DNA from: Verrucomicrobiales bacterium
GTDB lineage: Bacteria > Verrucomicrobiota > Verrucomicrobiia > Verrucomicrobiales > SLCJ01
Assembly: GCA_046075565.1 (NCBI GenBank)
Contig: JBJTQJ010000014.1
Span: forward strand, 1 to 64,000
DNA: 64,000 nt
Reading direction: 5' to 3'
The position numbers and the translations under genes are program-made. Positions 5,647 to 47,126 of this stretch are shown here, piece after piece. The notes beneath the pieces were generated by a model. It was given only the letters and a program-made list of their open reading frames with translations, was not told where the DNA came from and ran no database searches. Position 1 is the stretch's first letter. Each line of letters opens with the position of its first letter.

Positions 5647-8193
5647 ATGTCCAGAACGCTTATCATCGCCGAAAAGCCCAGTGTCGCGGCCGACCTCGCC
5701 AAGGTCTTGGCCAAGGCTCCCGGCATGGGCAAATTCGACAAGGTCGGCGACCACTACGAAAACGAGGCCGCGATCATTGCTTCGGCGGTGGGCCACTTGG
5801 TCGAACTGAAGATGCCCATGACGGCAGAAGGAAAGAGCCTGCCCTGGAGTTTCAAGCACCTGCCGGCCATTCCCGAGGAATTCGAGTTGGCCCCCATCGA
5901 GGATTCGAAAGAAAAGCTGCGCTCCATCGTCAAGCTGGCGAAGCAGAAGGATGTCTCCCGTATCGTCAATGCCTGCGACGCCGGGCGCGAGGGGGAGCTC
6001 ATTTTCCGCTACATCCTGCGCATCGGGAAAATCGACAAGCCCATCAACCGCCTCTGGATGCAGTCCATGACCGCCGGCTCCATCCTCGACGCTTGGAAAA
6101 CCTTGCGTGACGATGAGGAAATGCGCCCCTTGGCCGACGCGGCCGTCTGTCGTTCGGAGGCCGACTGGCTGGTTGGGCTGAATGCCACCCGCGTGCTCAC
6201 CGCCTTCAATTCGCGCCATGGCGGGTTCACGCTCACCCCCGCCGGGCGCGTGCAGACTCCAACCCTCATGATCCTCGCGGAACGGGAGAAGCTCATCCAA
6301 GCCTTTGTGCCGCGCGATTACCATGAAGTGCTCGGAACGTTTTCCGTTGTCTCCGGCACCTACCCCGGCCGCTGGATCCAACCCGATTTCAAAAAGGATC
6401 CCGACGACGACCAGAAACGCGAGGAACGCATCTGGACGTTGGCCGAGGCCGAAGCCATTCGCAGCCGGTGCTTGGGCAAGACCGGCACGATTGAGGAGGA
6501 AAAGAAGGAACTCAAGCAGTCCGCCAAACCACTCTACGACCTCACCAGCCTTCAACGGGAGGCCAGCGGACGTTTCGGCTTCTCGGCCCGCCGCACTTTG
6601 GACTTGGCCCAAAGGCTTTACGAGCGTTACAAGGCGCTCACCTACCCGAGAACGGATTCTCGCTACCTGCCGGAAGACTATGTCGGGGCGGTGAAGGACA
6701 CCCTTGGCAATCTCGCCGGCGACTTGCACGACGACCGGGCCGGATTTGCCGCACGCGCTCTGGAGAAGAACTGGGTCTTCAAAACTTCGCGCGTCTTCGA
6801 CAACAAAAAGGTCAGCGATCACTTCGCCATCATCCCGACCGGCCAGGTGCCGAAGGATCTCGATGCCGACCTTGCGAAGATTTACGATCTTGTTGTCCGG
6901 CGCTTCATCGCGGTCTTTTACCCGCAGGCCGAATATGATGTCACAACCCGGCTCACCCGTATCGCCCATGCGGACGGCGTGACCGATACCTTCAAGACGA
7001 ATGGGCGGGTGCTCCGTGTTCCCGGCTGGCTTGAAGTGTATGGCCGTGCCGCCGAGGTCTCGGTTGGCGAAGAAGCCGATCTCGCGCCCGTTTCCCCGGG
7101 AGAAAAAGCCGCCGTCGCGAAATTGGAAATCAAACACGACGTGACCAAACCACCGGCGCGCTACAACGAAGGCACCCTGCTTTCCGCGATGGAAAACGCT
7201 GGCAAACGCGTCGAGGACGAAGAACTCGCCGAAGCCATGAAGGAACGCGGACTGGGAACTCCCGCCACGCGTGCGGCAACGATTGAAGGTCTGATCGGTC
7301 AGAAATATGTCGCCCGCGATGGTAGAGAGCTGGTTGTCACCCCCAAAGGACTCGACCTCGTCAATCTGCTATCAGATATCGGCATCGAAGCCCTCACCTC
7401 GCCGGAGATGACCGGAGACTGGGAATACAAGCTCCGGCAGATGGAACACCGTGAGCTTCCCCGGACGCGCTTCATGAGCGAGATCAAGGCCATGACGCGC
7501 ACCATCGTGCTGAAGGTCAAGCAGGCCGCCGAGGAGTCCGCGCGCCGGGTTTATCCTGATCTCAAGGCCACTTGTCCGGCTTGCCGCGGCACGGTGATCA
7601 ACCACACCGACAACTACTATTCCTGTGCCAATCCGGAATGCTCGTGGCGCATGAAAACTTATGTCGCCCAGCGCGCGATCACACCGGCTGAAGTGATCAC
7701 CTTGCTTGAAAAAGGCAGCGTCGGTCCCTTCTCCGGATTCAAGAACCGCTTCCACAAGGAATTCGAAGCCGCTCTCGAAATCGACGACAAGGGCAAGGTG
7801 CAATTCCGCTTCGCCGATCAGGGCGATAGCGAGGAGAGCGACCCCGCCAATCTGGGAGAACCCATCGCCCGCATTTCCTTGCCCGGTGGAGGGGACGCTC
7901 CCGTCTATGAAACCGAAAAAGCCTATCTTTGCCCGGACCTCAAATCACCGGCCGAGCCGAAAGGCGTGCGCATCTCCAAGCAGATCCTGCAGCGCGCGAT
8001 TCCCCGTGACCAGGCCATCAAACTCTTTACCGAGCATAAGACCGACCTACTCCAGGGATTTGTCTCGAAGAGCAAACGCCGCTTTGCCGCCCATCTCGTC
8101 TTCGATCCCAAGACCGGGAAAATCGGATTCGAGTTCGCCGAGCGCAAAGGCCCGCCACGCAAAGCCGCTGCCAAAAAGAGCAAGGAGAAGTGA
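5647..8193 (+). CDS. topB: DNA topoisomerase III (type IA)
   Basis: [36 protein letters not shown], catalytic LTYPRTD, and C-terminal repeats. Confidence 0.93.
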
Positions 8194-9906: not shown

Positions 9907-11307
9907 TCACTTGCCCGAGGGAGCCGCCGGATCCTCGCCATAATGCGCAAGGTGACGCACTCGCCATGAGGATGGTTCGCGGAAGAGCGGATTGGGCGAG
10001 CGTGTTTCCCAATTGCCGAGTTGCTTCAACATGGCGCGGGTGCGTGCCGGCTGTTCCAGGGAAACATCCCGCGTCTCTCCGGGATCCTGCGCGAGATCAT
10101 AGAGCATGGGCAGGTGGTCGGGCAGGCGGATGAGTTTCCATTCTCCCTCGCGCACCGCGGAGCCAACCGTATATCGCCACTTGAGCGAGGGGTGCGGTGA
10201 CTCCTGCGTCTTCTCCTGCAGAAACGGAAGCAGATTCAGGCCATCGAACCGGGCGTCAGGGCCGACGACACCACCGGCTGCCGCGACAAAGGTCGGAACA
10301 AGGTCGAGGGAAGAAACCATGGCATCGACCTTCTTTTCTTTCGGCAAAGCGGCGGGCCAGCGCATCAGCATCGGCACGCGGATGCCGCCCTCAAGCACGG
10401 TAGTCTTCCCGCCACGGAAGATCCCATTGGTTGACCCGTTGCCCATACCCGGAGCGGACGGACCTCCGTTGTCGCTCAGGAAAACGACGATGGTATCGCG
10501 TTCGAGATTCTGATTCCGGAGTTCATCGAGGATCTTACCCACGTTCTGATCAAGGCGATAAACCATGGCACAATAGGTGCGGCGTCTTTTGTCCTCGATG
10601 TTTGCGAAACGCTGCAGGTCACTCTCGGTCGCCTGCATCGGCGAATGCGGTGCGGCGAAGGAGGCGAAGAGGAAAAATGGTTTGTCCTTGTGGCGGCGGA
10701 TGAAGTCGACGCACTCGTCTCCTTGGTCATCGGTCAGGTAGGTGATGGGCGAGGGTTCTTTGTAAGTGCAAAGGAGAGGTCCGGCCATCGCTTCCTCACC
10801 ACCGGGTTCGGCACGGAAATAGTCGTGGGCGCCACCGAGCCAACCCCAGAATTCATCGAAGCCACGTTTGGTCGGATGAAATTGCGGTCTCTCCCCCTGA
10901 TGCCATTTCCCCATGATGCCTGTCGTGTATCCCAGCTTCTTCAGCCGATCCGCGATGGTCGTCTGATTCAATGGCAGTCCGATGGTTTCCGGATGATGGC
11001 CGGGTTGTACGGGCGCGAGATTATCGTAGAAGCCAAAGCCAATCGGATGTTTACCGGTCATCAATCCGGCGCGGGATGGCGCGCAGACCGGAGAGGTGAC
11101 ATAAGCATTGCTAAAATTCACCCCGCTGCTGGCGAGGCCATCGATATACGGAGTGGGAATATCCTTGCTACCGGTTACCCCGAGGTCGCCATATCCGAGA
11201 TCGTCGGCAAGCATCAGAATGATATTGGGACGCGTGGCCGACTCCGCCGGCACAGAAACCGGGAGAATGATGGCCAAGGCAGCAAGAATTAGGGCACCGG
11301 GCTTCAT
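9907..11307 (-). CDS. Sulfatase (formylglycine-dependent, S1 type)
   Basis: Start reassigned to MKPGALIL (ATG 11307); RPNIILMLADD, CAPSR, GKWH and SDNGG. Confidence 0.93.
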   Translation of the reverse strand: MKPGALILAALAIILPVSVPAESATRPNIILMLADDLGYGDLGVTGSKDIPTPYIDGLASSGVNFSNAYVTSPVCAPSRAGLMTGKHPIGFGFYDNLAPVQPGHHPETIGLPLNQTTIADRLKKLGYTTGIMGKWHQGERPQFHPTKRGFDEFWGWLGGAHDYFRAEPGGEEAMAGPLLCTYKEPSPITYLTDDQGDECVDFIRRHKDKPFFLFASFAAPHSPMQATESDLQRFANIEDKRRRTYCAMVYRLDQNVGKILDELRNQNLERDTIVVFLSDNGGPSAPGMGNGSTNGIFRGGKTTVLEGGIRVPMLMRWPAALPKEKKVDAMVSSLDLVPTFVAAAGGVVGPDARFDGLNLLPFLQEKTQESPHPSLKWRYTVGSAVREGEWKLIRLPDHLPMLYDLAQDPGETRDVSLEQPARTRAMLKQLGNWETRSPNPLFREPSSWRVRHLAHYGEDPAAPSGK

Positions 11308-11821: not shown

Positions 11822-12061
11822 TCAGGGAAGGAGATTGACGGCACGAGCGCGTTTGATCTCGCGGGTAATCTGGCGATGCAGACGAGCGGAGACTCCGGTG
11901 GTGCGGCGGGGCAGGATTTTGCCGGTTTCGGACGTGAACTTCGAAAGGAGTTCAGGATTGGTATAGACAATCTTCTCGACCGGGATGTCGATGCGACGGT
12001 GGGGCATCGTACGGTTGGCGCGGCGGAAATTGGCCCAGCGTTCTTTGGTTTTCGGTTCCAT
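11822..12061 (-). CDS. rpsR: 30S ribosomal protein S18 (cysteine-free form)
   Basis: LLSKFTSETGKILPRRTTGVSARLHRQITREIKRAR. Confidence 0.95.
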   Translation of the reverse strand: MEPKTKERWANFRRANRTMPHRRIDIPVEKIVYTNPELLSKFTSETGKILPRRTTGVSARLHRQITREIKRARAVNLLP

Positions 12062-12299: not shown

Positions 12300-13601
12300 T
12301 TAATCTTCTTCAACTGGAGATTCTTGATTTTCTTCACCCTCCTCGTTGACCCCGAATACGGGCCGGCTGCCCCGGAAGGTGCTGCCGTTCATTTTCCGCT
12401 CTTTTTCAATGATTTCCTGGCATTCCACGGTGTAGCGGGCGAAGGGAATGGCCTCCAAGCGGACCACCGGAATCGCCTTGTAGGACATCTCACACATCCC
12501 GTAACTGCCGGCCTCGATGCGTTTGATGGCCTCCTCGATCTCGTAAAGGGCGTCCTGCTCCTGGGAAAGGAGACTGAGGGCGAAATCCCGGTCGTAGGCG
12601 TCGCTGCCGGCGTCGGCCTGGTGCATTCCGAAGGCGGAAGCCGTCTCATTGGTCCCGTCTCCGCGCAGGTTGTTTTTGGCCAGACCGTCCATCGAATTGA
12701 TCAGGGTATCGCGCAGGTCGAGCAGGATTTGCTTCTGCTGCCTGATGAAGGCGGCACGGAGGGTGGACTTGAGAACGGGAGGCGGGGGTGGCTCGGGAGC
12801 CGTGGCCTTGGCCTTGAGGGCCAGCGGGCGCGGACGAACAACCTCACCGGTGCGGCGCTTGAGTTTGAGTTTGAGCTTGAGTTTGACCGACTTGCCGGCT
12901 TCGGCGGATTTCCGGTCGGAGGCCTTGACAGGGGAAACCTTGGCCGGAACTTCCTTGGCAGGAGCGGGGACTACGGGTTTCTCCTTGCCTTTCGGCGCGG
13001 GTTTGGCCGCAGGCTTGGCTTCGACCTTCACCGCGGGTTTGGCGACTGCCTTCACCTCGGCTTTCGCAGTGGGTTTGGCCGGGGGTTTGGGAGTGGACTT
13101 GGTGGCTGATTTTGAAGGCGCGGGAGCGACGCTCTTCTTGACTGGAGAGGGGGCAGATTTTGGAGACACTTTGGAGGTAGGTTTCGCCGGGACCGCTTTG
13201 GCGGAAGCCGGTTTGGAAGATGATTTTCCACCTTTGGCTGGGGCGGGCTTTTTGGAGACCGCCGCCACGGGCTTCTTGACCGCCTTTGCGGATGCTTTGG
13301 CCTTGGGTGCAGGCTTGGCTTTCACGGCAGGTTTCGCTTTGGAAACGGACTTCGCCTTGGAAACGGGCTTTGCCTTTGCCGCAGGCTTCGTCTTCGCAAC
13401 GGGCTTCGCCTTTGCGGTCGGCTTTGCTTTGGAAGCGGGCTTGGCCTTTGCCGCAGGCTTCGCCTTCGCGGCAGGCTTGGCCTTCGCGGTTGGCTTTGCT
13501 TTGGAAGCGGGCTTTGCTTTGGAAGCGGGCTTTGATTTTGCGGGAGCGGGCTTTGCCTTTGCGGCAGGCTTTCCTTTGGCGGGAGCGGTCTTCTTGGCCA
13601 T
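12300..13601 (-). CDS. dksA: DksA/TraR family transcription factor with a long Lys/Ala/Pro-rich N-terminal extension
   Basis: C-terminal MHQADAGSDAYDRDFAL...EIEEAIKRIEAGSYGMCEMSYKAIPVVRLEAIPFARYTVECQ; start reassigned to MAKKTAP at 13601. Confidence 0.85.
   Translation of the reverse strand: MAKKTAPAKGKPAAKAKPAPAKSKPASKAKPASKAKPTAKAKPAAKAKPAAKAKPASKAKPTAKAKPVAKTKPAAKAKPVSKAKSVSKAKPAVKAKPAPKAKASAKAVKKPVAAVSKKPAPAKGGKSSSKPASAKAVPAKPTSKVSPKSAPSPVKKSVAPAPSKSATKSTPKPPAKPTAKAEVKAVAKPAVKVEAKPAAKPAPKGKEKPVVPAPAKEVPAKVSPVKASDRKSAEAGKSVKLKLKLKLKRRTGEVVRPRPLALKAKATAPEPPPPPVLKSTLRAAFIRQQKQILLDLRDTLINSMDGLAKNNLRGDGTNETASAFGMHQADAGSDAYDRDFALSLLSQEQDALYEIEEAIKRIEAGSYGMCEMSYKAIPVVRLEAIPFARYTVECQEIIEKERKMNGSTFRGSRPVFGVNEEGEENQESPVEED
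13300..13580 (-). repeat. Approximately 18-bp tandem repeats encoding (A/S)KAKP(A/T/V) hexapeptides
   Basis: KPASKAKPASKAKPTAKAKPAAKAKPAAKAKP... in the translation. Confidence 0.9.
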
Positions 13602-13762
13602 ATACCAGTGTGGAATTTTTCCGGCGTTGGTTCCCCCGATGCGGGGGTGGCCGAAAAAGAGGCGGCCATTCTTACGTGCCGTCATCCCCGGATGCAACAG
13701 GAAAAGACTCTTTCACGCTCGATTTTTCGGGGAACAGCCCCCGGAAGATTCCCGGAAAGGGA

Positions 13763-42482: not shown

Positions 42483-42932
42483 TCATGATGCTCTAGATTC
42501 CGGTATCCAGTGCTCGAAGTTCAACCCTTGCTGCTCGAATTTGAAGAAATCATTATCCCGGGAGACCCAAGTGCAGGCATGCTCGATGGCCACCGCCGCA
42601 TGTTGGGCATCGGCGATGCTTTTGCCCGTGGCCCCGGTTGACCGACAGAGGCGGGAAACCAATTCCCAGTGCCGCTTGCCGGGAAGCAGCCAATGGCCAT
42701 TCGCCTCGTTCATCATGGCATCAATAACCGCCAAAGCCTGGGGAAGCGGTGTGGGGCCATTGGGAAAACGCGGGTTGGTGACAATCCTCACGAATCCCCC
42801 GGCCACCAAAGGCGAAAGCCCGAAGGCGTGCTTCCCAAGGATCGTCCCCTGCAATCGAGCCCGATAGTAAGCATGGTCCAACTGGTCTTCCCGATGGGCA
42901 TAAACCAGGATATTCACATCGAAGGCAATCAT
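42483..42932 (-). CDS. vapC: VapC PIN-domain ribonuclease toxin
   Basis: MIAFDVNILVYA, FVRIVTNPR, DAQHAAVAIE and SRDNDF. Confidence 0.92.
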   Translation of the reverse strand: MIAFDVNILVYAHREDQLDHAYYRARLQGTILGKHAFGLSPLVAGGFVRIVTNPRFPNGPTPLPQALAVIDAMMNEANGHWLLPGKRHWELVSRLCRSTGATGKSIADAQHAAVAIEHACTWVSRDNDFFKFEQQGLNFEHWIPESRAS

Positions 42933-43183
42933 GGGCGATACTCGTGTAGTTCTTCTGCCACCATGAGTTCAGCCATTTCTTGCGGACTCGTATCCACCCG
43001 ATTTGCCCGCTCCGGAGCAAAAGTTGGCATTTGGAAAGGCGCATCCGAGGCGGGCAACAACGGTTCACGGAACGCGGTAAGAAGAGCGTCATTCACCACA
43101 GCACTGATACTAGTGTTGCGCTCGGCTGCCCGCTTCTTTGCCTCAAGAAACAAAGCGTCATTGACAATGAGGGTAGTTCTCAT
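42929..43183 (-). CDS. vapB: VapB antitoxin (ribbon-helix-helix)
   Basis: MRTTLIVNDALFLEAKKRAAERNTSISAVVNDAL; 4-bp overlap with vapC. Confidence 0.9.
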   Translation of the reverse strand: MRTTLIVNDALFLEAKKRAAERNTSISAVVNDALLTAFREPLLPASDAPFQMPTFAPERANRVDTSPQEMAELMVAEELHEYRP

Positions 43184-43191
43184 GATTACGC

Positions 43192-43219
43192 ATCATACGT
43201 ATGCACGCTTAATTTTCAA
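43192..43219 (-). promoter_or_regulatory. vapBC promoter with a palindromic operator
   Basis: Minus strand TTGAAA-N16-TATGAT; palindrome CATACGTATG (43194-43203) overlaps the -10 box. Confidence 0.65.
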
Positions 43220-43486
43220 GGATAATTTTCGTTAATCGCCCCTTTGGGGATGCGTTCACCCAGTGCCTGCTTCCCGGCCAGAACGCAATGATCGCTTGCC
43301 TGCGCTGCCACGCACCCCGGCCTCTTGGAAGATTTGGCGCCTGCCTGTTGAATGCTTTGGGAAGTTGATCTTGTGCAGTCGATCAAGGAGATGCTATTCT
43401 CAACCTCGTGGTCGGCTCACCCTGCCACACATTCCCATGGCCCGATGCCCATCCCGCATCGTTCACAAACCACACCCCACCACCCA

Positions 43487-43831
43487 ATGAATATTCCGGA
43501 ATCTGATTGGCGTCGTTTCAAGGAAGTGCATGGAATCCTCATTCAGCGATATTGCTCACAAGTCTTGGAAGAGCTTCTCGAAGTGGCTCAAGGAACGGAT
43601 CAGAGCCCGCACGACCGTTATTTGAAGATCTTTGGCATGATTCGGGATCGTGACAAAGAATTGGGCCGTGTCTTCGATGATTTCCGCCGTTCAACTGCGG
43701 TGTCCCAGTTGGGGCTCATGCGATCCATGGGGCTTCTAGCCGATGAAGAACTGGCTTCATTTTCCGAGGAGACTCGGCAGCAAGTGGACAGTTACGCCGT
43801 CATGGCTTCACGGCTTGGGGAACCGGACTGA
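43487..43831 (+). CDS. Small helical hypothetical protein
   Basis: MNIPESDWRRFKEVH...RYC...FDDFRRSTAV; protein-like ORF, start reassigned to ATG 43487. Confidence 0.7.
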   Translation: MNIPESDWRRFKEVHGILIQRYCSQVLEELLEVAQGTDQSPHDRYLKIFGMIRDRDKELGRVFDDFRRSTAVSQLGLMRSMGLLADEELASFSEETRQQVDSYAVMASRLGEPD

Positions 43832-43877
43832 CATGGCAAAACCTAACTCCGATTCTGTCGGGGCTACCCCTTGATCC

Positions 43878-43953
43878 GTAGCGGCACGTCTTCCCGTGCC
43901 GAGTGAGCGACGCTCCACCCCCAGAAAGCGCCGTCGCTGCCGGCGCACTCCAA
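43878..43953. repeat. REP-like palindromes
   Basis: gtag+cggcacg-tcttcc-cgtgccg hairpin, and aaagcgccgtcgctgccggcgcactccaa. Confidence 0.55.
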
Positions 43954-43998
43954 CACAGGGGCTAAGATTGGACACCGCACTCGACAGGTAGCTCTTGA

Positions 43999-44383
43999 TC
44001 ACGAACCGGCCTCGTCACCCCAAGAGCTGGGAAGAATCCCAGCAGTCCAAAAGCCTGCGGCGCTCTCGCGCATCAGCGCCGCAGGCTCTGGACTGTCACC
44101 GTAGATAGTGCAGTAGCCGACAGCCTCCAGCCCGGCAAACGCCATCCCCCTAGCGTCGCCAATCGCTTCCCCCTCATCAAAGTCATCCGGAGCGACAAAT
44201 CCCCCCAAAGCCGACAACCTCGCCACCGCTTGCCAGGCGTGAGCCCGGTCCTCGGACTTTTCCCAACAGCGCAAAAAAGTCTTGCGCCAAAGCGTCGTGC
44301 GGACAGGATTCTTCCAAGGCCGCTCGAACGAGCCCCGCCTCGGCAAGGACGGAGTCTGCCCTTCCGGGTCGCTTTTTCCCCAT
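43999..44383 (-). pseudogene. Possible frameshifted gene relic, divergent from the cassette (possibly an integrase N-terminus)
   Basis: MGKKRPG...LAQ joins TFLRCWEKSEDRAHAWQAVARLSAL in another frame; no catalytic tyrosine-recombinase motifs seen. Confidence 0.25.
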
Positions 44384-44458
44384 AACAACGACCGGTCGCT
44401 CAATAAAACTGTTAGCGGAAAAAACAAGCCCTCTCATTCGCGCAATCGCACAGATTCC

Positions 44459-45282
44459 ATGAAAAACTTCTACTACGTTGACGCCACCCAGGAAGTCCAG
44501 GGGCCTTTGCCGCTTGAAGAACTTGACGCGCTCCATAGGTGCGGAAAGATAACTGCTATGACCCAGGTATGCTTGGAAGGAACAGAGGTTTGGACGCCAT
44601 TTTAACAACTTCCCCGACCTTCGGCCCCAAAGGAAGAGCCAAGAAAAGCAGAAGCACCCGCTACTTCTTTTGGACTCTGGTAAATTGCCCTGCCTGCGGC
44701 AAATCCGTTTCTAGGAACGCGCCATCGTGTATCGGTTGCGGAGAGCCGCTAAAAACGCCAGAAGAGATTCTCGCCTCAGGCCATGCAAAAGCAATAAAGC
44801 CGGACGAGACTATCGGAATTCTTCTTTTAGTTTTGCCCACGGTTTCGGCTCTCCTGATAGTTTTCTGGATTGGTAGCATGAATTTACTTCAAAATCCGGG
44901 ATCGACTCTTGCGTTCATTGTGATTGCCACAGTGATTGCGTGTGGGCTTTTAGTTGGATTTGAGGCCAACCAACTCGGGGTTGGCAGCGACACAGATATC
45001 GACGATAAAGGAAGCAAGAAGACAGGACCTGTTGGCTGGGCCGTATTCACGATGCTTATGTGGGTTATTGGATATCCGGCTTACATGGGGCATCGCTCAA
45101 AATATGGGGCGAACGATTTATTATTTGGTGCCATCTTGACCACTTTCCTTTTCATAAGCGCAATCTTTTATATCAATTATGCCATCGAGGAAAAGAAGGC
45201 ACAGGTTAGGGCGGGTGTTCGTGAAGTTCAGAAAGAGCTAGACGATTTGGAGAGAAGTTTCCGCTACAACAGCAACCGCTAA
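44459..45282 (+). pseudogene. Disrupted GYF_2 (DUF4339) + zinc-ribbon + four-TM membrane protein
   Basis: MKNFYYV...QGPLPLEEL...TQVCLEGTEVWTPF stops at 44603-44605; CPACGKSVSRNAPSCIGCG and the TM helices continue in the -1 frame. Confidence 0.7.
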
Positions 45283-45363
45283 CAAGCCGTGCGTGGCAAC
45301 CGGCGATAGCGCCCCTGGTTGAATTTGGAGCTTGCCCCGCCGGTGCCACCACTCTACATTGGT
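45276..45363 (+). other. attC recombination site (R' degenerate)
   Basis: R'' CCGCTAAC, 5-nt spacer AAGCC, then GTGCGTGGCAACCGGCG pairing with CGCCGGTGCCACCAC with an unpaired C and A, 5-nt spacer TCTAC, and R' ATT in place of GTT. Confidence 0.8.
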
Positions 45364-45497
45364 TTTTGAAGGTTGATTTGATAGCGATGCGTTGTGCTGC
45401 CAGTTCAAAAATCAAAAATCCGCACTCGTCACTCGTCAATCACGGGGTTTCCCGATAACTTTCAATCTGCCTGACGGACCACACTAGCCCGCGCCGC

Positions 45498-47126
45498 TCA
45501 CTCCCGGAACCTCTGCGCGATAGGCATGCGTCGGCCGATGCCGAATGCTTTGGTGGTCACGCGGAGACCGGGCGCGGCTTGGTGGCGTTTCCATTCGTTG
45601 CAATCGACCATGCGGATGATCCGGCGGGTGGTTTCGGCATCGAAGCCATCGGCGATGATTTCGTCCCCGCTCCAGTGGCGTTCGACCAGACGTTCGAGTA
45701 TGGCATCGAGCACCTCATAGGGCGGGAGTGAGTCCTGGTCGGTCTGGTCCGGGCGCAACTCCGCGCTCGGGGGTTTGGAGATCGTGCCGGGAGGAATGAT
45801 TTCTTTTTCCCGGTTCATCCAGCAGGCGAGATCGTAGATGCGGGTTTTCGGCACATCACTGATGACCGCGAGTCCGCCGCACATGTCGCCGTAGATGGTG
45901 CAGTAGCCGACCGCCAGTTCACTTTTGTTACCGGTGGTGAGCAGCAAATGACCGAACTTGTTCGAGATGGCCATGAGAGTCACGCCGCGCAGACGCGCTT
46001 GCAGATTTTCCTCGGTCACATCGGGGGCGCGACCCGCGAAGACGGGCGCGAAACTCGCGAGGGCGGCATCGACCATCGGACCAATCGGCACGGTGTGGGT
46101 GGTGATGCCGAGATTGGCGGCCAAGCGCAGGGCATCGGAAATACTATGGTCGGAAGAGAAAGGACCTGGCATCAGCACTCCGAACACATTCTCCGGTCCG
46201 AGGGCTTCCGCCGCGAGGGCGGCGACCATGGCGGAATCAATGCCGCCGCTGAGGCCAAGCACAACCGATTTGAATCCACACTTGCGCACGTAGTCGCCAA
46301 GACCGAGCACGAGAGCGGCGTGTAATTCCGAGCATGGCTCCATCCAGACGGGCTTGATGACGGGTGCGTCCAACTCCACAACCCTTTCGCATTCCTCGAA
46401 ACCGGGCAAGATCGCGCGGGTGGCACCATCGGCGCCCACCAGCAATGAATGGCCATCAAAGACAAGTTGGTCATTGCCCCCCACGGCGTTCACATAAACG
46501 ATGGGCACACCCGACTCTCGAGCGGTTTCCCCGAGCATTCTGGATCGGGTCTCCGGTTTTCCGAGATGGTAGGGCGAGGCGCTCAGATTGAGGATCAGTT
46601 TCGCGCCTGCTCGCACCAAATCGGCTGCGGGATCGCGGCGATACAATGGCGCGGGCAAATAGTCCTCATCCCAGATGTCCTCGCAGATGGTGATACCACA
46701 CGGCAGACCGGCGAGTTCGATCACCTGGACTGAATCGGCCGGTTCGAAGTAACGTGCTTCATCAAAGACGTCGTAGGTGGGCAGACGGGTTTTCGCGATT
46801 TGGTGTTTTACCTTCCCCCGCTCAAGGACGGCGGCTGCATTGAGAAAAGGAGCGCCCTGGCCAGTAAGGTTAGGCGCGACATAACCGACGAGTAAGGGAA
46901 CTTCCCTGGTAGTGAGCGCGAGTTCCTCCAATGCGGAAAGTGTTTTCGGCAAGAAAGCGGACTTGAGAATCAGATCCCGCGGAGGATACCCGGTGATGGC
47001 GAGTTCGGGAGCAACGATGATTTCAGCTCCGGCTTCGACAAGCCTACGGTAACCCGCCGCGACACGGGCCGTGTTGCCGGAGATATCTCCCACCGTGGGA
47101 TTGATTTGCAGAAAACCGATGCGCAT
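45498..47126 (-). CDS. nadE: Glutamine-dependent NAD+ synthetase
   Basis: CN-hydrolase domain (PEL, KTRLP, ICEDIW) plus LSGGIDS, ENLQARLRG and TGNKSE. Confidence 0.96.
   Translation of the reverse strand: MRIGFLQINPTVGDISGNTARVAAGYRRLVEAGAEIIVAPELAITGYPPRDLILKSAFLPKTLSALEELALTTREVPLLVGYVAPNLTGQGAPFLNAAAVLERGKVKHQIAKTRLPTYDVFDEARYFEPADSVQVIELAGLPCGITICEDIWDEDYLPAPLYRRDPAADLVRAGAKLILNLSASPYHLGKPETRSRMLGETARESGVPIVYVNAVGGNDQLVFDGHSLLVGADGATRAILPGFEECERVVELDAPVIKPVWMEPCSELHAALVLGLGDYVRKCGFKSVVLGLSGGIDSAMVAALAAEALGPENVFGVLMPGPFSSDHSISDALRLAANLGITTHTVPIGPMVDAALASFAPVFAGRAPDVTEENLQARLRGVTLMAISNKFGHLLLTTGNKSELAVGYCTIYGDMCGGLAVISDVPKTRIYDLACWMNREKEIIPPGTISKPPSAELRPDQTDQDSLPPYEVLDAILERLVERHWSGDEIIADGFDAETTRRIIRMVDCNEWKRHQAAPGLRVTTKAFGIGRRMPIAQRFRE

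What the first reader, a model, noticed from the sequence alone, without database searches (positions are those of the whole stretch)
44411..45363. Hidden integron gene cassette with a complete attC fold and matching core sites, but no intact integrase
Seen: the cassette opens with GTTAGCGG (44411) and its gene ends with the stop codon inside CCGCTAAC (45276-45283), the exact reverse complement. This is followed by a 5-nt spacer, a stem with two single-base bulges (C, then A), a variable loop, a 5-nt spacer, and ATT where R' GTT is expected. The enclosed DNA is visibly AT-richer than its flanks. Established: R''-L''-L'-R' with extrahelical bases, a stop codon within R'', and a complementary TTRRRY at the cassette start are hallmarks of integrated integron cassettes. 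Inference: this is a solitary cassette or relic integron, immobilised by a G>A change in R'.
Basis: partly seen in the sequence, partly recalled or inferred. Interest (0 to 1): 0.8.

Follow-up and report, generated by a model that had tools for sequence, protein, structure and literature searches.

The report
Integrase-less integron remnant beside nadE
This is a real but decayed piece of an integron: a docking site (attI), one captured gene cassette whose gene is now broken, and its folded recombination site (attC), left without its integrase gene; it is an ordinary kind of genomic relic, though unusually easy to read.

Summary
All motifs are at the stated coordinates. The 88-nt element at 45277-45364 is a genuine integron attC. 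A covariance model built only from other attC sites gives one hit in the 64-kb window, exactly there (E 4e-7). Sister sites sit in one-strand cassette arrays in this and related genomes, with compensatory stem changes.

New findings:
- The left flank (44343-44411) is a homolog of the attI site that follows intI in related Verrucomicrobiota integrons (profile E 1.3e-12). Only two strong hits occur in the genome; the other is the attI beside the genome's own intI on contig C68. The locus is therefore a relic integron, attI-cassette-attC without intI, not a cassette dropped at a random site.
- The cassette gene (GYF + zinc-ribbon + membrane protein) is a pseudogene with one TAA stop and one frameshift. 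A homolog is a bona fide cassette in another genome's integron.
- The genome keeps an integron integrase elsewhere (363 bits, cut-off 265).
- The G>A in R' is not fixed. A depth-19 metagenome contig reads G there, so immobilisation by that base is unsupported.

Known kind (CALIN/SALIN); moderate interest.

The parts
44343..44411 (+). attI remnant. It has a conserved upstream block (about 44354-44376), one GACCGGTC box (44390-44397) and the core TCAATAAAACTG, ending at the crossover G (44411). About 27 nt (one repeat box) is missing relative to relatives.
   Evidence: A profile of 20 relatives' post-intI regions, searched over the whole genome, gave C68:11127-11244 at E 3.7e-19 and C14:44343-44425 at E 1.3e-12; the next hit was E 0.0073. 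blastn put 25 of 26 hit loci 30-235 nt past the intI end, on the same strand. The strict core pattern occurs once in G000, at this place, with 0 control hits.
44412..45358 (+). The gene cassette (947 nt), from the TT after the attI crossover to the first base of R'.
   Evidence: Its start, (G)TTAGCGG, is the reverse complement of its own R'' CCGCTAA(C). The same rule holds for three successive cassettes in the C68 integron and in relatives' arrays. GC is 0.497 against 0.596 for the genome.
44459..44605 (+). Cassette gene, piece 1: the GYF_2 domain, closed by an in-frame TAA at 44603-44605.
   Evidence: Pfam GYF_2, 31 bits. It matches residues 1-69 of homolog P0002 with 1 TAA inside. Intact homologs of 260-271 aa carry GYF_2 and a zinc ribbon in one frame.
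44641..45282 (+). Cassette gene, piece 2, in another frame: zinc ribbon plus 3-4 hydrophobic segments. Its stop, TAA 45280-82, lies inside R''.
   Evidence: It matches residues 62-253 of P0002. Weak zinc-ribbon Pfam hits. Hydropathy. The frame change falls at about 44641-44675. Contigs of 4 runs showed no indel and no change at the stop.
45277..45364 (+). attC site. R'' 45277-83; spacer; L'' stem with bulged C (45292) and A (45299); 32-nt loop; L' 45338-52; spacer; R' 45358-64.
   Evidence: CM R1, built without this site or its sequence family, gave one hit in the window: 34.6 bits, E 4e-7, covering the full model. On 21 family sites the stem is 89.8% paired, with 5 pairs changed on both sides and a covariation score of 0.167 against 0.092 in shuffles (0 of 500 reach it).
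45358..45358 (+). First base of R'. It is A in the window and G in run X1.
   Evidence: In one search, the X1 contig (1325 nt, depth 19) reads G, and the X3 contig (151 nt, depth 2) reads A.
45359..45487 (+). Right flank: a 129-nt intergenic repeat. Its homology to a paralog starts exactly at the TT after the crossover.
   Evidence: 88.4% identical to C40:66002-66130, where the preceding base is G. The left arm of the C40 copy's 13-nt inverted repeat is absent from the window.
45498..47126 (-). nadE (glutamine-dependent NAD synthetase), the chromosomal neighbour that converges on the relic.
   Evidence: Pfam NAD_synthase 258.8 bits and CN_hydrolase.

Best explanation
The locus is the remnant of a chromosomal integron of the Verrucomicrobiota type, in which intI, attI and the cassettes all read the same way. 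What survives is the attI site (44343-44411), one cassette inserted at its G|TT crossover (44412-45358) and that cassette's attC (45277-45364).

The integrase gene that should lie just upstream of attI is gone. The cassette gene, a GYF / zinc-ribbon / membrane protein of unknown role, has decayed through a nonsense codon and a frameshift.

Mechanism, inferred by analogy with studied integrons: an IntI tyrosine recombinase once bound the double-stranded attI and the folded bottom strand of attC. The two bulged bases mark which strand is used. It exchanged strands between the G and TT, and this is why the cassette's first bases complement its own R''.

Today the module is passive DNA. It could move only if an IntI made elsewhere, such as the one on contig C68, accepts these sites.
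For: **Shown**
- The attC is found by an independent CM: one hit in 64 kb, both strands, E 4e-7, with exact R''-to-R' ends.
- The same CM finds dense one-strand arrays in relatives: 71 hits in 20 loci, and 74 hits in 50 of the 80 intI loci. All 74 are on the intI strand and 72 of 74 lie downstream of intI.
- Stem covariation on 21 family sites.
- The cassette start complements its own R'' over 8 of 8 bases. This rule was verified in the C68 array.
- The left flank is an attI homolog.
- No intI is on this contig. No intI remnant was found in 43100-44345 by blastn or by tblastn with 8 IntI proteins (best E 0.22).
- Homologs of the cassette gene are fused and intact, and one is a cassette between two attC sites next to an intI-like ORF in G199.
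- The gene is patchy: 7 of 301 genomes and 5 of 57 genera of the order.
- The stop and the frameshift appear in contigs of 4 runs.
- G151 carries a second example of the same architecture, attI, one cassette and one attC with no intI on the contig.

**Inferred**
- That an intI once lay here.
- The recombination chemistry.
Against: - No trace of an intI gene remains, so loss in place is inferred and not seen.
- The 20 relatives used for the attI profile were picked by BLAST similarity to this flank, which biases the profile towards it. Even so, its best hit was the C68 attI, which played no part in choosing the 20.
- The window's attI lacks one repeat box (about 27 nt) and has a different box type (GACCGGTC) from the C68 attI.
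- The right-flank homology to C40 starts exactly at the crossover, yet the matching left half of that repeat is nowhere in the window. A simple one-step history does not explain both flanks.
- The whole-genome run of the CM through the genome search did not list this site. Its first look scored only 150 of 363 candidates.
- The fold energy alone is not unusual.
- The runs come from one study and may include the source of the assembly, so they are not independent.
- The join to the genes left of 43987-44095 runs through a multi-copy repeat.
Confidence: 0.85

Rival explanations
1. A free cassette was inserted de novo at an ordinary genomic secondary site (attG, consensus GWT) by the IntI encoded on C68. 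This is the attG route to a SALIN and would involve no former integron at this locus.
For: The genome encodes an IntI above the family cut-off. SALINs made this way are documented (bioRxiv 10.1101/2022.09.11.507474, passages read). The right flank is a chromosomal repeat whose paralog has GTT at the exact junction.
Against: The left flank is not ordinary DNA. It matches the attI profile at E 1.3e-12, one of only two strong hits in 3.9 Mb, and the crossover aligns with the attI crossovers of relatives. The left half of the C40-type repeat is missing.
Confidence: 0.06
2. The module is not dead. It is an integrase-free satellite docking site that is still served in trans by the C68 IntI, so cassettes can enter and leave it.
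For: IntI is present elsewhere. In run X1 the attC has the canonical GTT. The attI core is well kept. A second orphan attI with one cassette exists in G151, which also has intI elsewhere. Cury et al. note that cassettes lacking a nearby intI may still be mobilised (PMC4889954, passages).
Against: - The cassette gene is a pseudogene and sits at about 19x in X1, which argues for stasis.
- No joints, empty attI or alternative cassette appeared in contigs of 4 runs, although contigs drop rare forms.
- The window's attI box type differs from that of C68, and one box is deleted.
- The 5' region of the C68 intI differs from relatives and holds a genome repeat, so its start is uncertain.
Confidence: 0.08
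3. It is not an integron site at all: a terminator-like hairpin or a REP/MITE repeat that happens to resemble an attC.
For: The fold z-scores are unremarkable. Rfam has no hit. The region is rich in other repeats.
Against: CM hit with exact ends. Family members lie in one-strand arrays downstream of intI, and each R' complements the next R''. Compensatory stem changes are present. An attI lies at the other end.
Confidence: 0.01

Closest known systems
SALIN / CALIN (single attC site, or cluster of attC sites, lacking an integron integrase)
   Same: One attC-bearing cassette with no intI on the contig, in a genome that has intI elsewhere. The proposed origins listed in PMC4889954 (passages) include loss of intI and rearrangement. 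SALINs are common: 3400 were found in 2469 of 21,105 genomes (bioRxiv 10.1101/2022.09.11.507474, passages).
   Different: Here an attI site is still recognisable at the cassette's 5' end. That decides the origin in favour of a former integron and against attG insertion. Those surveys do not search for attI, because it is unknown for most integrons.
Complete chromosomal integrons of Verrucomicrobiota with intI co-oriented with the array (this genome's C68 integron; loci L048-L127)
   Same: Same attI core ending CTG|TT, same attC geometry with the AAC-AAGNC start, and the same direction of attI, cassette and attC.
   Different: There is no intI and only one cassette. One attI repeat box is deleted and the cassette gene is broken.
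Class 1 attC sites such as that of aadA7 (architecture recalled from the literature, not from a call)
   Same: R box, 5-nt unpaired spacer, a 3-bp stem, a first extrahelical base, a 6-bp stem, a second extrahelical base, a terminal stem and a variable loop. The bulges read C then A on the top strand (G and T on the recombining bottom strand).
   Different: No sequence similarity. The loop is conserved across a whole bacterial order in this family. The partner integrase is a distant IntI.
Cassette insertion at attG secondary sites
   Same: The right junction falls at a GTT of a chromosomal repeat.
   Different: The left junction is an attI and not the other half of that repeat.

Membership tests
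integron attC site | Conserved AAC in R'' | tested here: met
   CGCTAAC at 45277-83.
integron attC site | Conserved GTT in R' | tested here: inconclusive
   The window and the X3 contig (depth 2) read ATT. The X1 contig (depth 19) reads GTT.
integron attC site | Imperfect palindrome with unpaired spacer and two extrahelical bases in canonical spacing | tested here: met
   5-nt spacers, then 3 bp, bulge, 6 bp, bulge, 6 bp. 14 of 14 scored pairs are Watson-Crick. The top-strand MFE reproduces it.
integron attC site | Detected by an attC covariance model | tested here: met
   Own model R1, built from 8 other attC sites: 34.6 bits, E 4e-7, the only hit in the window. IntegronFinder's model was not available. 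Rfam gave no hit.
integron attC site | Structure kept by compensatory change among relatives | tested here: met
   5 stem pairs changed on both sides. Covariation 0.167 against 0.092 in shuffles (0 of 500 reach it) and at most 0.092 when slid. One degenerate site, C43b, was left out of the alignment.
integron attC site | Recombined as a folded bottom strand by IntI | not testable with these tools
   Needs an in vivo or in vitro assay.
integron gene cassette | Starts with TTNNNN complementary to its own R''; one ORF ending at or within the attC | tested here: met
   8 of 8 complementary bases. The stop codon lies inside R''. The rule was verified in the C68 array.
integron gene cassette | The gene family is seen as a cassette elsewhere | tested here: met
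   The G199 homolog lies between attC sites at L025 2228-2353 and 1344-1470, next to an intI-like ORF.
attI site of this intI clade | Sequence homology to the region that follows intI, with the crossover aligned | tested here: met
   nhmmer E 1.3e-12. 25 of 26 BLAST-hit loci are at the post-intI position. Conservation ends at CTG|TT.
attI site of this intI clade | Lies directly downstream of an intI gene | tested here: not met
   No intI on contig C14. No remnant in 43100-44345.
complete integron | intI within a few kb of the attC site(s) | tested here: not met
   TIGR02249 hits lie only on C68, C124, C108 and C5.
SALIN | A single attC with no other attC and no intI nearby | tested here: met
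   R1 finds one site in 64 kb at E up to 10. No intI on the contig.

The most novel reading that the evidence does not exclude
Integrase-free attI sites are kept as working satellite docking sites. One IntI, encoded elsewhere in the genome, would serve several scattered attI sites, making a distributed integron. The orphan attI-plus-one-cassette modules in G000 and G151 would be two instances of this, not dead relics.
Probability: 0.08. Interest if true: 0.6.

Novelty: new member of a known kind. Interest (0 to 1): 0.35.

Why it matters
Solitary cassettes are common, but their origin is usually undecidable because attI sites are unknown outside a few integron classes. Here the attI of a Verrucomicrobiota integron clade can be read from 20 and more loci: repeat boxes plus the core TCAATAAMACTG|TT. 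That decides the origin of this solitary cassette: a former integron that lost its integrase, not an insertion at a secondary site. The same profile could be used to sort other CALIN and SALIN elements in this phylum. The locus also gives a natural pair of attC alleles, GTT and ATT at the cleavage triplet, for testing whether the first-base rule found for IntI1 holds in a distant integrase.

Tried and rejected
- **Rfam** over the whole window: 0 matches. This is uninformative, because no family reached threshold.
- **Fold energies**: not distinctive.
- **Relaxed geometry scan**: no better than the reversed-genome null, 58 against 72 hits. The strict scan gave 4 against 1, but it needs an exact GTT and so cannot see the window's site.
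- **Empty-site comparison in relatives**: the nearest genomes share only about 66-75% nucleotide identity in nadE. In G001, yraN and nadE lie about 74 kb apart. No informative empty site was found.
- **A nadE duplication left of the cassette**: only a 32-nt piece exists (29 of 32 identical).
- **The 142-aa minus-strand ORF 43999-44427**: no Pfam hit and no homolog in 300 other genomes of the order. I treat it as non-coding.
- **Left half of the C40-type repeat**: not in the window.
- **Similarity of the left flank to the C68 attI alone**: only suggestive. It was 15 of 24 anchored identities, with 45 of 100,375 GTT sites as good, and a 33-nt block reached by 4 of 6000 nulls. It became convincing only with the relatives.
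- **CM R1 on the degenerate sister sites** C43a, C43b, C103 and C5: no hit at E 0.1.
- **Whole-genome CM run through the genome search**: it listed only the three training sites and one weak hit, and not the window site.
- **Earlier findings of the scan**: none for this genome.
- **Contigs of 4 runs**: no excision joint or empty attI was seen. Contigs cannot show rare forms.

Full report
**1. The observation**

- GTTAGCGG lies at 44411-44418.
- Its exact reverse complement, CCGCTAAC, lies at 45276-45283, with the gene's TAA inside it.
- A 5-nt spacer follows, then a stem of 3 + 6 + 6 bp interrupted by a bulged C (45292) and a bulged A (45299).
- After that come a 32-nt loop, the returning arm, a 5-nt spacer and ATTGGTT (45358-45364).

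The enclosed DNA is AT-richer. It is 0.497 GC, against 0.583 and 0.597 in the flanks and 0.596 for the 3.9-Mb genome.

Taken alone, the hairpin is not remarkable.
- The bottom strand folds at -20.5 kcal/mol, z -1.60, and 12 of 200 shuffles do as well.
- The top strand gives z -1.09.
- Rfam gives nothing over the whole window.
- A relaxed scan for this geometry finds no more sites in the genome than in its reversed copy, 58 against 72.

The case therefore has to rest on comparison with other sequences.

**2. It is an attC site**

The genome holds an integron integrase on another contig: C68:10107-11048, TIGR02249 at 362.8 bits against a cut-off of 265, with no stops. An array follows it on the same strand. 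In that array each cassette begins with the exact complement of its own R'':
- GTTCTCC with GGAGAAC
- GTTATCC with GGATAAC
- GTTCTGC with GCAGAAC

A strict scan for the canonical geometry found 4 sites in the genome against 1 in the reversed genome. Two of the four lie in that array and one at the start of contig C25.

I built a covariance model, R1, from eight such sites of the long type (124-129 nt). Three came from this genome, three from the integron of G199 and two from G020. None belongs to the window's sequence family.
- Over the 64-kb window, both strands, E up to 10, R1 gives exactly one hit: 45277-45364 on the + strand, 34.6 bits, E 4e-7, full model length.
- The same model finds 71 sites in 20 loci, in dense one-strand arrays.

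A limitation: the whole-genome run of R1 through the genome search scored only 150 of 363 first-look candidates. It listed just the three training sites and one weak hit, and not the window site.

**3. A family of sister sites**

By sequence the window's site has five relatives in its own genome, with E of 3e-21 or better; the next hit is at E 0.47.
- C25:401-487 is 82% identical.
- C103, two sites on C43, and C5 are more degenerate. R1 does not detect those four at E 0.1.

The same sequence also turns up at 75-88% identity in other genomes of the order. I collected 16 such sites from 12 loci in 8 of those genomes.

I aligned 21 family sites, leaving out the indel-ridden C43b.
- The L''/L' stem is 89.8% paired.
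- Five pairs show changes on both sides, for example GTGGCA/TGCCAC becoming GAGGCA/TGCCTC or GATGCA/TGCATC.
- The covariation score is 0.167, against 0.092 in shuffles (0 of 500 reach it) and at most 0.092 when the partners are slid.

In relatives' arrays the R' of one site complements the R'' of the next.

**4. The left flank is an attI**

Relatives of the C68 IntI were fetched from public genomes: 80 loci, all titled as Verrucomicrobiota MAGs or similar, at up to 77% identity.

In 50 of those 80 loci, R1 finds 74 attC sites. All are on the intI strand and 72 of 74 lie downstream of intI. In this clade, therefore, intI, attI and the cassettes read the same way.

A blastn of window 44250-44440 hits 26 of the 80 loci. 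In 25 of them the hit lies 30-235 nt past the end of intI, on the same strand.

The alignment shows three conserved parts:
- a conserved block, CCCTTCCGGGTCGC;
- repeat boxes;
- a core, (G/C)ACCGGTNGNTCAATAAMACTG|TT, after which all sequences diverge.

The window reads CGACCGGTCGCTCAATAAAACTG|TTAGCGG.

A profile of 20 relatives' sites was searched over the whole genome and gave two strong hits: the attI beside intI on C68 (E 3.7e-19) and the window at 44343-44425 (E 1.3e-12). The next hits are at E 0.0073 and 0.021. The 20 sites were chosen by similarity to the window, which is a bias. The top hit, however, played no part in choosing them.

The window's copy lacks about 27 nt, which is one repeat box. 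The strict core pattern occurs in 4 of 301 genomes of the order, with 0 control hits. In G000 it occurs only here.

**5. No integrase here**

The own-genome TIGR02249 search finds nothing on contig C14. A blastn of 43600-44345 against the intI loci, and a tblastn of 8 IntI proteins against 43100-44420, give only chance-level hits, the best at E 0.22.

The region to the left looks like scar tissue.
- It contains a palindromic repeat (43987-44095) with many copies in this and other genomes.
- It contains a 32-nt fragment of nadE-like sequence.
- Its 142-aa ORF has no homolog in 300 other genomes of the order.

**6. The cassette gene is broken**

Intact homologs (P0002-P0004, 260-271 aa) carry a GYF_2 domain, a zinc ribbon and a hydrophobic C-terminal half in a single frame. 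The window matches them in two pieces:
- residues 1-69, with a TAA inside (44603-44605);
- residues 62-253, in another frame.

This amounts to one nonsense codon and one frameshift near 44641-44675. Contigs of four metagenome runs from one study show no indel and no change at the stop, so these lesions are not slips of this assembly alone.

The gene is patchy, found in 7 of 301 genomes and 5 of 57 genera of the order. In G199 a homolog lies between two attC sites next to an intI-like ORF. The gene family therefore travels as a cassette.

**7. The G>A in R'**

The window reads ATT at R'. The 1325-nt contig of run X1 (depth 19) covers 44250-45418 with only two differences, and one of them is G at 45358. 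A 151-nt contig of run X3 (depth 2) reads A, as the window does. That X3 contig also carries the window-specific bases on both sides of the repeat node, which supports the join from attC to the nadE side.

The A is therefore a variant and not a fixed lesion. For IntI1, changing the first base of the triplet in only one partner lowers attC x attI recombination 1e3-1e4-fold, and matching changes restore it (PMC2811028, abstract and section 13 read). By analogy the A allele would be poor against the GTT of this attI. That is an inference for a distant integrase.

A relative's site in G024 also reads ATT.

**8. What remains unexplained**

The right flank (45359-45487) is 88% identical to an intergenic repeat on C40. 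The homology begins exactly at the TT after the crossover, and C40 has G before it. The left part of the C40 copy, including the left arm of its 13-nt inverted repeat, is absent from the window.

One possible history is an attC x secondary-site event that joined the array to this repeat, followed by loss of intI. I cannot test this.

The box type of the window's attI (GACCGGTC) differs from that of C68 and resembles other relatives. The relic thus stems from a second integron lineage and is not a copy of C68.

**9. Comparison with what is known**

Clusters and single attC sites lacking an integrase (CALIN, SALIN) are well described. Proposed origins include loss of intI, rearrangement and insertion at secondary attG sites (PMC4889954, passages; bioRxiv 10.1101/2022.09.11.507474, passages).

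This locus is a new member of that kind. Its small distinction is that attI is recognisable, which settles the origin. G151 holds a second orphan with a full-length attI (E 2.8e-26), one cassette, one attC (63.9 bits) and no intI on the 53-kb contig. In G207 and G089 the same core lies 147 and 177 nt past an intI.

Searches for prior descriptions of attI in Verrucomicrobia found 7 papers holding the terms, none about this site. I judged that from listings and abstracts only, apart from the passages of PMC4889954 read.

**10. Verdict**

The immobilising mutation is not supported as stated. The finding belongs to a known kind and is of moderate interest.

Noticed in passing
G000 contig C68:9867-13990 (L011): A complete integron. 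intI is on the + strand, attI runs to the crossover G at 11232, and there are at least three CM-supported attC sites (11899-11991, 12485-12611, 13239-13325) plus a probable fourth near 13735. The cassettes include a DUF4304 protein and a RelB/ParE pair. An IS3-like transposase start sits at the contig end.
   Followed up: partly
G000 C68:10070-10097 and 9542: The region just upstream of the conserved IntI core differs from relatives' N-terminal extension and contains a copy of a short genome repeat (5 copies of its first 22 nt in the genome). The true start of this intI is uncertain.
   Followed up: partly
G000 contig C5:5650-6518 (L010): An ORF on the - strand begins like an IntI (TIGR02249 positions 4-46, 33 bits) and then breaks off. 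About 300 nt away on the + strand lies a degenerate member of the window's attC family (6432-6518). This may be a second relic.
   Followed up: partly
G000 contig C43:12468-13793 (L008): Two degenerate attC-family sites lie 1.2 kb apart on the - strand and flank a 340-aa ORF. This is a small integrase-less cluster. The CM does not detect these sites.
   Followed up: no
window 43987-44095: A palindromic, REP-like repeat with at least eight further copies in G000 (C115, C60 x3, C52, C31, C112, C10) and copies in G029 and G025.
   Followed up: no
window 44094-44125: A 32-nt fragment, 29 of 32 identical to the nadE segment that encodes AVGYCTIYGD, in the same orientation as nadE and 1.4 kb away from that gene's end.
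   Followed up: partly
window 45359-45487 and G000 C40:65943-66130: A 129-nt intergenic element, 88% identical between the two loci. The C40 copy is longer, has 13-nt terminal inverted repeats and lies between two convergent genes. Its central motif (window 45397-45442) recurs upstream of intI on C68 (9415-9449) and in L099, L060, L067 and L079, and in several copies in G009.
   Followed up: partly
G151 contig C11:40678-41254 (L128 4678-5255, - strand): A second orphan module in another family of the order: a full-length attI, one 172-aa lipoprotein-like cassette and one attC, with no intI on the contig. intI genes lie on other contigs of that genome.
   Followed up: yes
G024 contig C187 (L035 2786-2874, - strand): Another member of the attC family whose R' reads ATT in place of GTT.
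   Followed up: no
window 42483-43183: A VapC (PIN) gene with a small upstream antitoxin-like ORF on the - strand, in a stretch of lower GC (0.51-0.55) between yraN and the relic.
   Followed up: no
alignment A2: The loop of this attC family, normally the variable part of an attC, is well conserved across genomes of different families (consensus ATAACGTCCCTAGTTGAATTCGAGCTT).
   Followed up: no
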